Of a stretch of 64,000 bases of DNA, positions 1 to 64,000 are shown piece after piece. Position numbers and translations under genes: made by a program. Origin of the DNA: the human T2T-CHM13v2.0 reference genome, Homo sapiens. Below the pieces are notes generated by a model. The model was not told the DNA's origin and made no database searches. It saw only the letters and a list, made by a program, of their open reading frames with translations. The stretch covers positions 31,808,001 through 31,872,000 of the forward strand of contig CP086569.2 of NCBI GenBank assembly GCA_009914755.4, read 5' to 3'. Positions within the stretch are counted from its first letter, which is position 1. Every line of letters starts with the position of its first letter.

Positions 1-3000
1 AATGGATTCAAAAGGAATGGAATCGTACGGAATGGAATCTAATGGAATGGAATTAAATGGAAATGAATCAAATTGAACAGCACGGAATTGAATTGAATGG
101 AATGGAATGCAATGGAATCTAATGAAACGGAAAGGAAAGGAATGGAATGGAATGGAATGGGCTGGAATGGAAAGGAATCGAAACGAATGGAATGGAATCG
201 AACTGAAGAGACTGGAATGGAATGCACTGGAATGGAAGGGAGTGTAATGGAAGGTTCTCGAAAAAAATGGAATGGAATGGAATGGAATTGAATGGAACGG
301 AATAGAGTCGAATGGAATTGAATGGAATGGAATGGACTAGAGTGAAATGGAATCGAACCACAAGGAATGGACAGGAATAGAATGGTCTCGAATTGAATGG
401 AATCGTATGGAATGGCATCAAACGGAATGGAATGGACAGCCACGGAATAGAATGCACTCGAATGCAATGGAGTCGAAACTAATGGACTGGAATAGAATGG
501 ACTCGACTGGTACGGACTCCAATGGAATGGAATCGAATGGAAGGGAATCGAACGGAATGGACTCGAAGGGACAAGACTGCAATGGAAAGGTCTCGAATGG
601 AATGGAAATTAATGGAATGGAATGGAATCGAATGAAATGGAGTCAAAAGGAATGGAATCGAATGGCAAGAAATCGAATGTAATGGAATCGCAAGGAATTG
701 ATGTGAACGGAACGGAATGGAATGGAATCCAAAGGAATGGAATAGAATGGAATGGAATCGAATGGAAAGGTCTCGAATGGAAATCACTCGAATAGAATGC
801 AATTTAATAAAATAGGATCAAATGTAATGGAATGGAATGGAAAGGAATCGAAACGAAAGGAATGGAGACAGATGGAATGGAATGGAACAGAGAGCAATGG
901 TATAGAATGGAATGGAATCATCTGGAATGGAATTGAATGGAATGGAATAATATGAAATGGAATGGAATGGAATGGAATGGAATGCCCTTGAATTAAATGG
1001 ACTGGAATGGAATGGACTCGAACAGAGTGGAATGGAAAGTGTTGAGATAGAATGGAATGGACTCCTTTGGAATGGTCTAGTATGCAATGCAATCGACTGG
1101 TAGGGAATCAAAAGGAATGTAATCGAATGGATTGGACTGGAATGCAATGGACTCGAATAGATTGGAAACGGAATGCAAAGGAATGGAATGGAATAGTATG
1201 GAATGGAATGGAAAGGAATGGAGTGGAATAGACTAGAGTGGAATGGAATGGACTGGAAAGCAATGGACTGGAATGGAACTTTCTTGAATGGACTGGAATC
1301 AAACGGAATGGAATGCAATGCAATCAAATGGCATGGAATAAAATAGAATGAAAGAGAATCAAATGGAATTGAATCGAATGGAATCGAATGGATTGGAAAG
1401 GAATAGAATGGAATGGAATGGAATTGACTCAAATGGAATGGACTAGAATGGAATGGATTCGAATGGAAGGCAAAGGAATGGAATCTATTGGAATGGACTG
1501 TAATGGAATGGAATGGAAGGGATTGGAATGGACTCGAATGGAATGGACTGCAATAGAAAGGATTCGAATGGAATGAAAAAGAATTGAATGGAATAGAACA
1601 GAATGGAATCAAATCGAATGAAATGGAATGGAATAGAAAGGAATGGAATGAAATGGAATGGAAAGGATTCGAATGGAATGCAATCGAATGGAATGGAATC
1701 GAACGGAATGGAATAAAATGGAAGAAAACTGGCAAGAAATGGAATCGAAATGAATGGAGTGTTATGGAACGGACTCAAAAGGAATTGAATGTAATAGAAT
1801 GGAGTGGAGTGGACTCGAATATAATGGACTGGAATGGAATGAAATCACATGGAATGGGAACGAATGGAATGGAATGGAAAGGAATGGAATCGAATGGAAA
1901 GGAATCGAATGGAAGGGAATGAAATTGAATCAACAGGAATGGAAGGGAATAGAATAGACGGTAATGGAATGGACTCGAATAGAATGGACACGAATGCTCA
2001 AATTGAATGGACTCGAATGGAATGGAAACGAAAGGAATGTCATCGAATGGAATTGAATCGATTGGAATGAAATCGCATAGAATGGAGTGGAATCAAATGG
2101 AATTGAATCGAAAGGAAAGGAAGCGAATGGACTGAAATGAAATGGAATGGAATTGAATGGAAAGTAATGCAATGGAATAGAATGGAACGAAATTTCACGG
2201 AATGGAATCAAACTGAATGGAATCAAATCAATGGAATCTAATCAAATGGAATGGAAAGGAATTGAATGGAGTAGATTGGATTGGATGGGATTGGAATGAA
2301 ATGTACTGGAAAGGACTCGAATTTCATGAAACGGAATGGAATGAATTGGAACGGAATGGACTCGAATGGAATGGAATGTCATGGAATGGCATCAAATGGA
2401 ATGGCATCAAATGGAATGGAATCGAATGCAATGGAATGCTATGGAATGGAATGGAATGCATTGGAATGGAATGTCCTCTAATGGAATGGATTCGAGTGGA
2501 ATGGAATCGAATATAATGGAGTCGAATGAAATGGAATTGAAAAGAATGGGATCGAATACAATGGAATATACTGGAATGTAACGTAATGAACTCGAATGTA
2601 ATTGACTGGAATGGAATGTACATGAATGGAATGTAATCGAATGGAAAGTAATCCAATGGAATAGAAACTAATGCAATAAAATCGACTCAAATAGAGTAGA
2701 ATGTAATGGAATGGAGTGCAGTGCAATGGAATGGAATGGAATGGAATGCAATGGAATGGAATGGAATGGAATGGAATGGGATGGAATGGTGTGGAATGGA
2801 TAGTAATGGACTGGTGTGAAATGGACTGGAAAGGAATGGACTCAAATTGAAAGGGCTCGAAAGGAATGGAGTCAAATGGAATGGTCTGGAATGGAATGAA
2901 CACGAATGTAATGCAATCCAATAGAATGGAATCGAATGGCATGGAATATAAAGAAATGGAATCGAAGAGAATGGAAACAAATGGAATGGAATTGAATGGA

Positions 3001-3549
3001 ATGGAATTGAATGGAATGGGAAGGAATGGAGTGAAATTGTATGCAGTAGAAGAGAATAGAATGGAATGCAAGTGAAAGGAAAGGAATGGATTGGAATGGA
3101 ATGGAATTCATTGGAATGGAAGGGAATGTAGTGTAATGGACAGGCCTGGAATAAAGTGGAATGCTACGGTCTCGAATGGAATAAAAATGTATGGAATGGA
3201 ATGCAATGAAACGGAATCGAATGTCATAGAATGTAATGGAATGCAAAAAAATGGAATCCAAAATCATTGACTGGAAAGGCTGGGTGTCGAAAGGAATTGA
3301 CTCCAATGGAATGGAATCGAATGGAATGGAAGTGAATAGAATCGAACTAAATCGAATGGAATGGAATTGATAGGAACGGAATGGAAAGGAATGCAATGAT
3401 TTGGCATGGAATGGAATCGAATGGCATCGAATGGAATGGAATGGAATGCAATGGAATGGAATGTATTAGAATGTAATGAACTTTAATGGAATGTACTCGA
3501 ATGGATTCGACTGGAATGGAATGTTCTGGAAGTGAATGGACTCCAATGG
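1..3549. repeat. DYZ1-like HSat3 higher-order repeat copy 1 (3549 bp; window happens to begin at the chosen anchor)
   Basis: Bounded by the recurring anchor 'aatggattcaaaaggaatggaatcgtacgg' at 1 and 3550. The register is arbitrary. Confidence 0.8.
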
Positions 3550-61842: not shown

Positions 61843-62140
61843 TTTTTTTTTAGACAGAGTCTTGTCCTGTTGCACAGGGTGGAGTACAATGGCGCCATCT
61901 TTGCTCACTGCAACATCTGCCTCACGGGTCCAAGCGATTGTCCTCCCTCAGCCTCCCAGGTAGCTGGGACTACACCACACTGGGACTACACCAGCTGCCA
62001 CCATGCCTAGCTAATTTTTTGGATTTTTAGTAGTGACAGCGTTTCACTGTATTGGCCAGGATGGTCTTGATCTCTTCACCTGGTGATCCCCTTGCCTTGG
62101 CCTCCAAATTTGCTGGGATTACAGGCCTGAGCCAAGATCC
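61843..62140 (-). mobile_element. Alu (minus orientation), copy in unit 9
   Basis: Same Alu. Private 'cacctggtgatcc'. Confidence 0.85.
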
Positions 62141-64000
62141 ATATTTTTTAAATGAAAAAAAATTTCAAAGGTACTCTCCTTGGTACAATAATCAAATGTA
62201 TAAACTGAGGAATAAAATATAACCATGAAACCTACTTATAAGTGCATATGGAAAATACAGAGGATAATTTTTTAAATAACATATTTTGAAAGCCTTAACT
62301 AGTAATTTGAAGAGTTGGCATTTGAAAGGCCAGTATGAATATACCTTCAAAGCAGCAACACAGGTTCCCCATGAGAAAAAGCAAACTCAGGGAAAATAAA
62401 ACCACAAAGGTTCAATCTCTTCTGACCTTTGAAAGACACAGCACAGACAGTGGTCCTTAGGACGAAGAGCAGGAGACCCCTAATTCCGTCACCATGGCGA
62501 TAGGGCATAAACATTGCTTGGTGAGGGCACAATCCACATTGTGAGGTCCAACTGCTGCCAGGAAGACAGGAGTGCTTTTACATAGACCGAAAGGTCATTG
62601 AAGGCTCAGAGTTTTGTTTCAAGAACTGAATCCCAAGCCCACACGTTATTAGGCTGCGCTTCTTAAAACAAGTTATGAGATGGGAAAAAGGGCACCCACA
62701 GACATACGTATACATTATGTATATAATAATATACAGTATCATATATATAATATATATAACCTATGTATAATATTGTTTTACATCCTGCATCTTATATTAT
62801 ATATATTGTATAAAATATAATAATTGATAATATATAAGTTTTATATTTATACAATATGACATATAGTATATATTATAATTTATGACATATATAATGTATG
62901 TTATATATCATATATAGAATATATTATACGGTTAATATACGTATTAAATATGAATTATACATTATATATATTATATATAATATATCTGTTATATATAATA
63001 CCCATTATGCATAATATATATATTATGTCTATGTTATATATAGTATAAAACAACATATAATAATATATAATTGTGTATATAATATGCGACATATAATATA
63101 TATTATATTTTATGACATATGTAATATATATTATATATTATATATAATACGTTGTATGTATAATACCTATAATAAATATATATTATATGACTATGTTACT
63201 AATTACATGTCACATGTGTTATATATTATATATTTTACATAGAATATACCGGTTACATACAATATATACTATGTTACCTATAATGTATAATTTATTACAT
63301 GTGAAATAAAGAATGCAATATATTATGTATAATTTATAATACACAATATGTGGAATGTGATATATATAACATATAATATATGATATATGATATACAGTAT
63401 ATGATATATAACATACAATATATGATACCTAATATATATGGTATACAATATATATTTTATGATATGTATTCCATATGTTTTATATTCTGTTATATATAAC
63501 TACTTGAAATTATATATAACTGTATAATATTTTATGTAAATATGTAATATAATATATATAACTATATAATATATTATATATAACTATATATTATGTTATA
63601 TATACTTTTATAACATAATTTACATAAAATATCATAATATAATATATATTATATTATTTCATATTACATAATATATATTACATATCACCCAATATAAGTA
63701 ACATACATAATATTATAATATAGATTATATTATGTTATATTAAATATCATATATATCATGTATCATATAATCTATCATATATATTATACATTATATAATA
63801 TGTATGTTGTCTATTATGTGATATATATAACTATATATATAATTATATTATTATACATATAACTAGATAAACATGTAATTCTACATATTTTCATTTATAA
63901 TATATAGAATTATATAATCATATATAATTATTTATATTCTATAAAAAATTATATCATTATATAAATTATAATATGTAAAAATTATAATATGTACTACAAA
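61843..64000. repeat. DYZ2-like unit 9 (partial at window end, 2158 bp). Paralogue of unit 6.
   Basis: Alu poly-T starts at 61843. The variants listed for unit 6 recur here, exactly 7260 bp downstream. Confidence 0.8.

What the first reader, a model, noticed from the sequence alone, without database searches (positions are those of the whole stretch)
1..64000. Window spans a Yq12 DYZ1 (HSat3) to DYZ2 (HSat1B) array boundary; no genes
One side is a (GGAAT)n-derived 3.55-kb higher-order repeat with a single HaeIII site per unit. The other side is a 2.42-kb unit of Alu + spacer + AT-rich core. This co-occurrence matches the two classical male-specific Yq12 satellites, which alternate in long blocks. 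It also means all supplied ORFs are translation artefacts of tandem repeats. Prokaryote-style annotation of CDS, operons or defence systems does not apply.
Basis: partly seen in the sequence, partly recalled or inferred. Interest (0 to 1): 0.6.

Follow-up and report, generated by a model that had tools for sequence, protein, structure and literature searches.

The report
Human Y satellite boundary (DYZ1/DYZ2)
The window is non-coding human Y-chromosome heterochromatin in which a block of the DYZ1 satellite meets a block of the DYZ2 satellite; this arrangement is well described in the complete Y assemblies, so the finding is correct but ordinary.

Summary
Bases 1-41743 hold 11.7 tandem units of a (GGAAT)n-derived repeat of 3528-3579 bp. 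Each unit has one HaeIII site. Every unit aligns in register, on the minus strand, at 98.3-99.2% to a cloned DYZ1 unit from male DNA. Out-of-register alignments reach only about 71%. Bases 41744-64000 hold about 9.2 units of a 2417-2420-bp repeat. Each consists of an AT-rich core, an antisense 5'-truncated Alu of 291 bp, and a 567-bp GC-richer segment ending in ACATACG. These sizes, the GC content (24.1%) and the CpG density (1 per 147 bp) match published figures for DYZ2/HSat1B. DYZ1 is used as a Y-specific marker, and the two satellites are described as alternating in Yq12, so the window lies at a Yq12 array boundary. No tRNA or Rfam family was found, and no reading frame is conserved between units. 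ORFs of 110 aa or more occur only in DYZ1 and are pentapeptide-periodic artefacts. New detail: the junction is at 41743/41744 with a 3-bp ATC microhomology. The first DYZ2 unit lacks 768 bp of its AT-rich core. A 3-unit (about 10.7 kb) DYZ1 duplication is visible. Chromosome assignment rests on published markers, not on alignment to a Y assembly. Already known; low interest.

The parts
1..41743 (-). DYZ1 (HSat3A6) array: one partial unit (1-3142), ten full HaeIII-to-HaeIII units (3143-38688) and a final truncated unit (38689-41743, ending at reference position 492). The canonical TTCCA strand is the window's minus strand.
   Evidence: in-register identity of 98.3-99.2% to a cloned male DYZ1 unit, against about 71% out of register; one HaeIII site per unit; units of 3528-3579 bp.
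17318..38688 (.). Recent tandem duplication of a three-unit (about 10.7 kb) DYZ1 block: units u5-u7 (17318-27992) and u8-u10 (27993-38688).
   Evidence: u5/u8 99.6%, u6/u9 99.5%, u7/u10 99.7%, against 98.6-99.2% for most other pairs; ungapped identity of 0.99 or more at lag ~10695 in most 500-bp windows sampled between about 18 and 30 kb.
41741..41743 (.). DYZ1/DYZ2 junction with a 3-bp 'ATC' microhomology. The last DYZ1-only base is 41740 and the first DYZ2-only base is 41744.
   Evidence: intact DYZ1 reads ...GGAATAGAATC|TAATGCAAT; intact DYZ2 reads ...ACAGTATC|ATATATATAAT; the window reads ...GGAATAGAATC|ATATATGATAT.
41744..43352 (+). First, defective DYZ2 unit (1609 bp). It enters at about position 42 of the unit, at the start of the AT-rich core. 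It lacks 768 bp of the core, with the breakpoint at about 41828-41835 inside a shared ATATATA run.
43353..62701 (+). Eight full DYZ2 (HSat1B) units of 2417-2420 bp, delimited at the ACATACG motif. Each consists of an AT-rich core, an antisense Alu and an HSATI segment.
   Evidence: ACATACG once per unit; pairwise identity 97.3-98.6%; three units are exactly 2420 bp.
62702..64000 (+). Partial DYZ2 unit (AT-rich core) that runs off the end of the window.
42495..42785 (-). Alu subunit of DYZ2, first of nine copies. The others end at 45203, 47622, 50039, 52457, 54874, 57294, 59714 and 62134. Each covers AluY positions 13-288 and is 76-78% identical to the consensus.
   Evidence: published Alu length 290 +/- 2 bp, about 20% diverged, 5' truncated; sub-threshold hit to mir-1268, a family I recall from memory as Alu-derived.
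42786..43352 (+). GC-richer 'HSATI' segment of DYZ2 (567 bp), first of nine copies. It lies between the Alu head and ACATACG.
   Evidence: Published mean is 566 bp, SD 16.

Best explanation
[quoted passage not shown] It is centred on a boundary where a DYZ1 (HSat3A6, about 3.55 kb unit) array ends and a DYZ2 (HSat1B, 2.42 kb unit) array begins. It encodes no protein or structured RNA.

Shown here: the identity of both repeats, the base-level position of the junction, and the internal rearrangements.

Inferred: (a) the arrays are homogenised and resized by unequal sister-chromatid exchange and gene conversion, as the complete-Y papers conclude, and the three-unit DYZ1 duplication in the window is a local trace of this; (b) the junction itself arose once by non-homologous or microhomology-mediated joining, given the 3-bp ATC overlap with DYZ1 cut mid-unit and DYZ2 entered at the start of its AT-rich core; (c) the 768-bp loss in the boundary DYZ2 unit arose by slippage or microhomology-mediated deletion within the AT-rich core, given the shared ATATATA at the breakpoint.
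For: DYZ1:
- a cloned male DYZ1 unit (sequence) matches all 12 copies in register at 98.3-99.2%, against about 71% out of register.
- primers A-G of PMC3925983 (listed) map once per unit, colinear, at the published offsets.
- a primer pair I recalled as the classical male-sexing DYZ1 pair matches once per unit. The two primers converge, giving a 154-bp product in 10 of 11 units.
- HaeIII fragments are 3528-3579 bp, and two are 3569 bp, the modal length given.
- GC is 38.7% and CpG density is 1 per 35 bp. The published values are 38% and 1 per 35 bp.

DYZ2:
- units are 2417-2420 bp. The published consensus is 2420 bp.
- the Alu is 291 bp, 5'-truncated and about 23% diverged. The published values are 290 +/- 2 bp and about 20%.
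- The HSATI segment is 567 bp. The published mean is 566 +/- 16 bp.
- ACATACG occurs once per unit at the HSATI/AT-rich intersection, as described.
- GC is 24.1% and CpG density is 1 per 147 bp. The published values are 24% and 1 per 150 bp.

Location:
- DYZ1 and DYZ2 arrays alternate in Yq12, in 34-86 arrays. DYZ1 is used as a Y-specific motif for assigning contigs.

Non-coding status:
- no Rfam family reaches its gathering score, and no tRNA is found.
- all ORFs of 110 aa or more lie in DYZ1, on both strands, and differ in length between units.
- Pfam gives only sub-threshold hits to repeat families.

Rearrangements.
Against: No alignment to a complete Y assembly and no male-versus-female read-depth test could be run, so the chromosome assignment is indirect.

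DYZ2/HSat1B also occurs on acrocentric short arms. No labelled DYZ2 reference sequence was available, so DYZ2 was matched on published descriptors and on unlabelled contaminant copies.

The AluY consensus and the 154-bp primer pair came from memory. The primers were not found in the paper library.

The mechanisms proposed for the junction and the deletion are inferred from microhomology only. Three bases of overlap can arise by chance.

The junction 28-mer was not found in other public data, so the junction has no independent confirmation and an assembly chimera is not formally excluded.
Confidence: 0.95

Rival explanations
1. The window is an autosomal or acrocentric short-arm junction between an HSat3 array and an HSat1B array, not Yq12.
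For: [quoted passage not shown] Hallast et al. treat DYZ2 as 'Y-unspecific'.
Against: The left-hand repeat is not generic HSat3. It has the 3.55-kb higher-order period with one HaeIII site per unit. It matches a cloned male DYZ1 unit in register at 98.3-99.2% over 3564 bp, while anything out of register scores about 71%. DYZ1 is used in the literature as a Y-specific motif. Three of the eight full right-hand units have the Y-modal length of 2420 bp, and the other five are 2417-2419 bp.
Confidence: 0.02
2. The window is an assembly chimera: genuine DYZ1 and genuine DYZ2 sequence wrongly joined at 41743/41744 by an assembler.
For: The junction 28-mer was not found in metagenome or genome contig collections. 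The boundary DYZ2 unit is abnormal, with a 768-bp deletion.
Against: Absence is expected. The DYZ1 HaeIII-site 23-mer, present thousands of times per Y, gave about 40 matches in 33 loci of the same collection. A junction present at most a few dozen times per Y would therefore be expected less than once. [quoted passage not shown] DYZ2 units as short as 1275 bp are also reported.
Confidence: 0.02
3. The window comes from the Yq11/Yq12 transition (DYZ18 subregion), whose 2.7-kb array is 77% DYZ1-derived, or from a non-human great-ape Y chromosome.
For: DYZ1-related arrays exist in the DYZ18 subregion. Diverged DYZ1-like copies (74-91% identity) exist in public data.
Against: The period here is 3.53-3.58 kb, not 2.7 or 3.1 kb. 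The full 3564-bp reference unit is covered colinearly. Identity to human clones equals the identity between units of the array itself, which leaves no room for between-species divergence.
Confidence: 0.01

Closest known systems
DYZ1 (HSat3 subfamily A6), the 3.4/3.56-kb HaeIII male-specific satellite of human Yq12
   Same: Pentamer (TTCCA/GGAAT) base. Higher-order unit of about 3.55 kb with one HaeIII site, including two fragments of the published modal 3569 bp. 38.7% GC and 1 CpG per 35 bp. 98.3-99.2% full-length identity to a cloned unit. Published primers map at the published positions.
   Different: Nothing of substance. Unit lengths vary (3528-3579 bp) because of small indels, within the published range of 1165-3608 bp.
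DYZ2 (HSat1B), the about 2.4-kb tripartite satellite of Yq12: AT-rich simple repeat, 5'-truncated Alu and HSATI
   Same: Unit of 2417-2420 bp. Alu of 291 bp, about 23% diverged and 5'-truncated, with its head adjoining HSATI. HSATI of 567 bp. ACATACG at the HSATI/AT-rich intersection. 24.1% GC and 1 CpG per 147 bp.
   Different: Only 3 of the 8 full units have the modal 2420 bp, whereas 93.7% do in whole arrays. Units are only 97.3-98.6% alike. This fits the published observation that units near array ends are more diverged. The boundary unit carries a 768-bp deletion.
Alternating DYZ1/DYZ2 block structure of Yq12 in T2T-Y and 43 or more further Y assemblies (Rhie et al. 2023; Hallast et al. 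2023)
   Same: A direct transition from a DYZ1 array to a DYZ2 array, with the boundary in the AT-rich part of DYZ2. There are signs of local tandem duplication consistent with unequal exchange.
   Different: The papers I could read do not give junction sequences. The base-level anatomy here (ATC microhomology, entry at unit position ~42, 768-bp deletion) could not be compared with other boundaries.

Membership tests
DYZ1 / HSat3A6 | Tandem unit of about 3.5 kb released by HaeIII (one GGCC per unit; modal fragment 3569 bp) | tested here: met
   11 GGCC sites spaced 3528-3579 bp; two fragments are exactly 3569 bp.
DYZ1 / HSat3A6 | Built from TTCCA/GGAAT pentamers and their derivatives | tested here: met
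   the five rotations of GGAAT are the top 5-mers, at about 2700-2870 each. About 237 GGAAT occur per 3564 bp, against 184-235 in-frame TTCCA per unit in PMC3925983. The counting methods differ.
DYZ1 / HSat3A6 | Full-length, in-register sequence identity to a cloned DYZ1 unit from male DNA | tested here: met
   98.3-99.2% over 3564 bp for every unit, against about 71% out of register. Reference sequence.
DYZ1 / HSat3A6 | Published DYZ1 PCR primers anneal at their stated positions | tested here: met
   primers A-G match once per unit with 2 or fewer mismatches. Offsets are 749-769, 847-867, 1663-1700, 2544-2595 and 2603-2654, against published 763, 861, 1668, 2564 and 2637. Primer H fails only through a 1-base indel at the HaeIII site.
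DYZ1 / HSat3A6 | Composition of 38% GC and about 1 CpG per 35 bp | tested here: met
   38.7% GC and 1 CpG per 35 bp. Published values.
DYZ1 / HSat3A6 | Male-specific (present on the Y chromosome only) | not testable with these tools
   No human assemblies or sexed read sets were available. This rests (DYZ1 used as a Y-specific motif).
DYZ2 / HSat1B | Tandem unit of about 2.4 kb (consensus 2420 bp) | tested here: met
   units of 2417-2420 bp; autocorrelation maximum at 2420.
DYZ2 / HSat1B | One ancient, 5'-truncated AluY-like element per unit (290 +/- 2 bp, about 20% diverged) | tested here: met
One search gives weak independent support. Published values.
DYZ2 / HSat1B | HSATI segment of about 566 bp adjoining the Alu head, followed by ACATACG and the AT-rich simple repeat (more than 85% AT) | tested here: met
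   567 bp; ACATACG once per unit; core GC of 8-22% per 100 bp.
DYZ2 / HSat1B | Composition of 24% GC and about 1 CpG per 150 bp | tested here: met
   24.1% GC and 1 CpG per 147 bp.
DYZ2 / HSat1B | Sequence identity to a labelled DYZ2 consensus | not testable with these tools
   No labelled DYZ2 sequence was held in the papers or supplements searched. Unlabelled contaminant copies are 94-99.5% identical.
Yq12 heterochromatin (array boundary) | DYZ1 and DYZ2 arrays directly adjacent on one molecule | tested here: met
   direct junction at 41743/41744 with no intervening sequence.
Yq12 heterochromatin (array boundary) | Placement in Yq12 of a complete human Y assembly | not testable with these tools
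   None of the collections offered holds a human Y assembly.
DYZ18-subregion arrays (DYZ18, 3.1 kb, 2.7 kb) | Period of 2.7 or 3.1 kb, with part of the unit derived from DYZ18 | tested here: not met
   the period is 3.53-3.58 kb and the whole unit is colinear with DYZ1.
Protein-coding or RNA gene content | A conserved reading frame, a curated domain, or an RNA family match | tested here: not met
   no Rfam gathering-score hit and no tRNA. ORFs occur only in DYZ1, overlap on both strands, and differ in length between units. The same locus reads 305, 180, 180, 314, 305, 305, 173+136, 318, 169+143, 305, 305 and 270 aa. Pfam hits fall below the cut-offs (Extensin_1 45 bits against 105; Pentapeptide_4 29 against 38).

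The most novel reading that the evidence does not exclude
The junction anatomy found here may be a signature shared by many or all DYZ1-to-DYZ2 transitions on Yq12. That anatomy is: DYZ1 cut at unit position 492, a 3-bp ATC overlap, DYZ2 entered at position ~42, and a boundary unit lacking 768 bp. If shared, the alternating pattern descends from one ancestral composite DYZ1-DYZ2 block that was amplified, and junction variants could serve as lineage markers for dating Yq12 block duplications. The evidence here neither supports nor excludes this, because no other junction could be retrieved.
Probability: 0.35. Interest if true: 0.3.

Novelty: already known. Interest (0 to 1): 0.08.

Why it matters
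It matters mainly as triage. The window is human Y-chromosome satellite DNA, so prokaryote-style calling of genes, operons or defence systems on it yields only artefacts. The 102 ORFs of 110 aa or more, with their weak 'Extensin' and 'Pentapeptide' matches, should be discarded.

It also illustrates a practical hazard. The same two satellites turn up as contaminants in 'bacterial' genome assemblies and in metagenomes, as Rhie et al. reported.

The base-level junction description is a small addition. It would become useful only if compared across complete Y assemblies.

Tried and rejected
- The 154-bp DYZ1 primer pair I recalled from memory was not found in the paper library, either as whole strings or split. 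A search for 'DYZ1 + 154 bp' returned an unrelated STS assay. Its provenance therefore remains my recollection. I replaced it with the primers and cloned unit of PMC3925983.
- I looked for a labelled DYZ2 sequence or DYZ2 primers in Rhie et al., in the Hallast supplement and in the library. None was found.
- The junction 28-mer gave no matches in metagenome contigs or genome contigs. This is uninformative, because fewer than one hit was expected.
- Ten external loci that matched the window poorly or only in part were examined for other DYZ1/DYZ2 junctions (nine carrying DYZ1, plus L007 carrying DYZ2). None had one. Six are diverged DYZ1-like HSat3 (74-88% identity), and three match DYZ1 closely over only part of their length.
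- Ungapped autocorrelation fails to show the 3.55-kb period on the DYZ1 side because of indels between units. k-mer distances and alignment were used instead.
- The reference list of the bioRxiv version of Rhie et al. is not held, so the primary DYZ2 papers could not be read.
- Rejected readings: generic autosomal HSat3, a DYZ18-subregion array, any coding interpretation of the ORFs, and any prokaryotic or phage origin.
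Full report
**Observation**

The window has two sharply different halves.
- Up to about 41.7 kb, GC is 0.38-0.39 with strong strand asymmetry (GC skew about +0.56, AT skew about +0.32).
- After that, GC falls to 0.21-0.27 with no skew.
- The left half reads as degenerate (GGAAT)n. The right half reads as AT-rich sequence interrupted by GC-richer segments.

- Distances between identical 24-mers peak at 3534-3579 bp on the left and at 2417-2420 bp on the right.
- GGCC (HaeIII) occurs exactly once per left-hand unit: 11 sites spaced 3528-3579 bp.
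- The ten complete left-hand units are 98.6-99.7% identical to each other.
- The eight complete right-hand units are 97.3-98.6% identical to each other.

They are far beyond chance.

**Identity of the left-hand repeat**

I obtained a labelled reference from the literature. Additional file 1 of PMC3925983 prints the 3564-bp HaeIII unit of DYZ1 cloned from male blood DNA (MZT1a; GenBank KF941192 according to the paper).
- Aligned to the window, it matches every left-hand copy in register on the minus strand at 98.3-99.2% over its full length.
- All out-of-register alignments are about 71%. That is the background similarity of any GGAAT-derived satellite with itself.
- Seven of the eight DYZ1 primers in that paper map once per unit. 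They are colinear, at offsets from the HaeIII site that agree with the published positions. The eighth fails only through a single-base indel at the HaeIII site.
- A primer pair I recalled as the classical male-sexing DYZ1 pair also matches once per unit. The primers converge and give a 154-bp product in 10 of 11 units. I could not confirm its provenance in the library.
- Composition (38.7% GC, 1 CpG per 35 bp) equals the values Hallast et al. give for DYZ1.
- Two HaeIII fragments have their modal length of 3569 bp.

**Identity of the right-hand repeat**

No labelled DYZ2 sequence was available. I therefore tested the published descriptors.

| Feature | Published | Window |
|---|---|---|
| Unit length | 2420-bp consensus; 93.7% of units are 2420 bp | 2417-2420 bp; three of eight are exactly 2420 bp; autocorrelation maximum at 2420 |
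| Alu | 5'-truncated, 290 +/- 2 bp, about 20% diverged | One antisense Alu per unit, consensus positions 13-288, 291 bp, 76-78% identical |
| HSATI segment | 566 +/- 16 bp, adjoining the Alu head | 567 bp between the Alu head and ACATACG |
| ACATACG | At the intersection of HSATI and the AT-rich repeat | Once per unit at that position |
| AT-rich part | More than 85% AT | Core of 8-22% GC per 100 bp |
| Composition | 24% GC, 1 CpG per 150 bp | 24.1% GC, 1 CpG per 147 bp |

- A virtual HaeIII digest gives 2143-2146-bp fragments. From memory, this corresponds to the classical 2.1-kb male HaeIII band.
- Rfam gives only a sub-threshold hit inside the Alu, to mir-1268, a family I recall as Alu-derived.

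**Location**

Rhie et al. and Hallast et al. describe Yq12 as 34-86 alternating DYZ1 and DYZ2 arrays. They use DYZ1 as a Y-specific motif and treat DYZ2 as not Y-specific, because it also lies on acrocentric short arms. A DYZ1 array directly abutting a DYZ2 array on one molecule therefore places the window in Yq12. This step rests on published knowledge. I could not align to a Y assembly or test male-specific read depth.

**Junction and rearrangements**

- DYZ1 ends at window base 41743, which corresponds to position 492 of the reference HaeIII unit.
- Intact DYZ1 units continue ...GGAATAGAATC|TAATGCAAT.
- Intact DYZ2 units read ...ACAGTATC|ATATATATAAT.
- The window reads ...GGAATAGAATC|ATATATGATAT.
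- The two repeats therefore overlap by three bases, ATC, at 41741-41743.
- DYZ2 is entered about 42 bp after ACATACG, at the start of its AT-rich core. This agrees with the published remark that such boundaries lie at the intersection of the AT-rich repeat and a DYZ1 unit.
- The first DYZ2 unit is only 1609 bp. It lacks 768 bp of the AT-rich core, and the breakpoint lies inside an ATATATA run shared by both flanks. Units as short as 1275 bp are reported.
- In the DYZ1 array, units u5-u7 and u8-u10 pair off at 99.5-99.7%. An ungapped lag of about 10,695 bp gives 0.99 or more identity in most 500-bp windows sampled between about 18 and 30 kb. This indicates a recent three-unit tandem duplication.

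From these traces I infer two processes but have not shown them. The first is unequal exchange within arrays, which is the mechanism both Y papers favour. The second is microhomology-mediated or non-homologous joining at the junction and at the deletion.

**Genes**

- No Rfam family reaches its gathering score, and there is no tRNA.
- All 102 ORFs of 110 aa or more lie in the DYZ1 half and overlap on both strands.
- They consist of FHSIP- or NGMEW-type pentapeptide periodicity, which is the translation of a 5-nt repeat read over 15 nt.
- They differ in length from unit to unit at the same locus: 305, 180, 180, 314, 305, 305, 173+136, 318 aa and so on.
- Pfam gives only sub-threshold matches to repeat families.
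- The AT-rich half has no ORF of that length.

**Related sequences elsewhere**

- The junction 28-mer is absent from the metagenome and GTDB genome collections. This is uninformative. The DYZ1 HaeIII-site 23-mer has thousands of copies per Y and gave only about 40 matches, so a junction with at most dozens of copies would be expected less than once.
- A DYZ2 23-mer found 19 contigs in 'bacterial' assemblies that are 94-99.5% identical to the window's unit. These include collapsed circularly permuted units and a piece of about 1 kb inside a 5.16-Mb actinobacterial scaffold. This is the contamination Rhie et al. describe.
- The DYZ1 23-mer found 33 metagenome contigs. Some carry several units about 3.55 kb apart, and some are only 74-91% like the window.
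- None contains a DYZ1/DYZ2 junction.

**Verdict**

The feature is a textbook, recently fully sequenced part of the human genome, so it is already known and of low interest. The remaining uncertainty is about 5%. It concerns indirect chromosome assignment and the unverified integrity of the junction, not the identity of the repeats.

Noticed in passing
window 17318-38688: DYZ1 units u5-u7 and u8-u10 are pairwise 99.5-99.7% identical, against 98.6-99.2% for most other pairs. This indicates a recent tandem duplication of a three-unit (~10.7 kb) block.
   Followed up: partly
window 1-41743: Ungapped autocorrelation of the DYZ1 side is highest at lag 15 (0.689), then 30 and 45, rather than at lag 5 (0.645). 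This suggests a three-pentamer sub-period within the pentamer satellite.
   Followed up: no
window 3104, 6638... 38650: There is exactly one EcoRI site (GAATTC) per DYZ1 unit, always 39 bp before the HaeIII site.
   Followed up: no
window 42655 and 52377-52447: HaeIII-site polymorphism among DYZ2 units. The first unit has an extra GGCC at 42655. The unit near 52.4 kb has lost one, so the 45-bp and 25-bp fragments merge into 70 bp.
   Followed up: no
window 43353-62701: DYZ2 units next to the boundary are less homogeneous (97.3-98.6%) than the DYZ1 units (98.6-99.7%). Only 3 of 8 have the modal 2420-bp length. The three units nearest the junction (v1-v3) are the most alike. This fits the published pattern of greater divergence at array ends.
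   Followed up: partly
L007 5897-6920 (NZ_HF570958.1, Nostocoides japonicum T1-X7, 5.16-Mb scaffold): A fragment of human DYZ2 about 1 kb long (97.6% identical to the window, GC ~0.4) is embedded in a scaffold of GC ~0.7. This is a human contaminant built into a bacterial reference scaffold. Eighteen other 'bacterial' contigs are pure DYZ2.
   Followed up: partly
L029, L050, L049, L041, L025, L026, L040, L046, L020: These metagenome contigs carry the DYZ1 HaeIII-site 23-mer but are only 74-91% identical to the window's DYZ1 unit. They may be diverged DYZ1-like or HSat3 variants, or error-rich long-read contigs. Their origin was not determined.
   Followed up: no
window 59527-59593 (-), and the equivalent position in each DYZ2 unit: There is a sub-threshold Rfam match to the mir-1268 precursor family (33.9 bits against a gathering score of 83) inside the DYZ2 Alu. 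This is probably only the Alu ancestry of that miRNA family.
   Followed up: no
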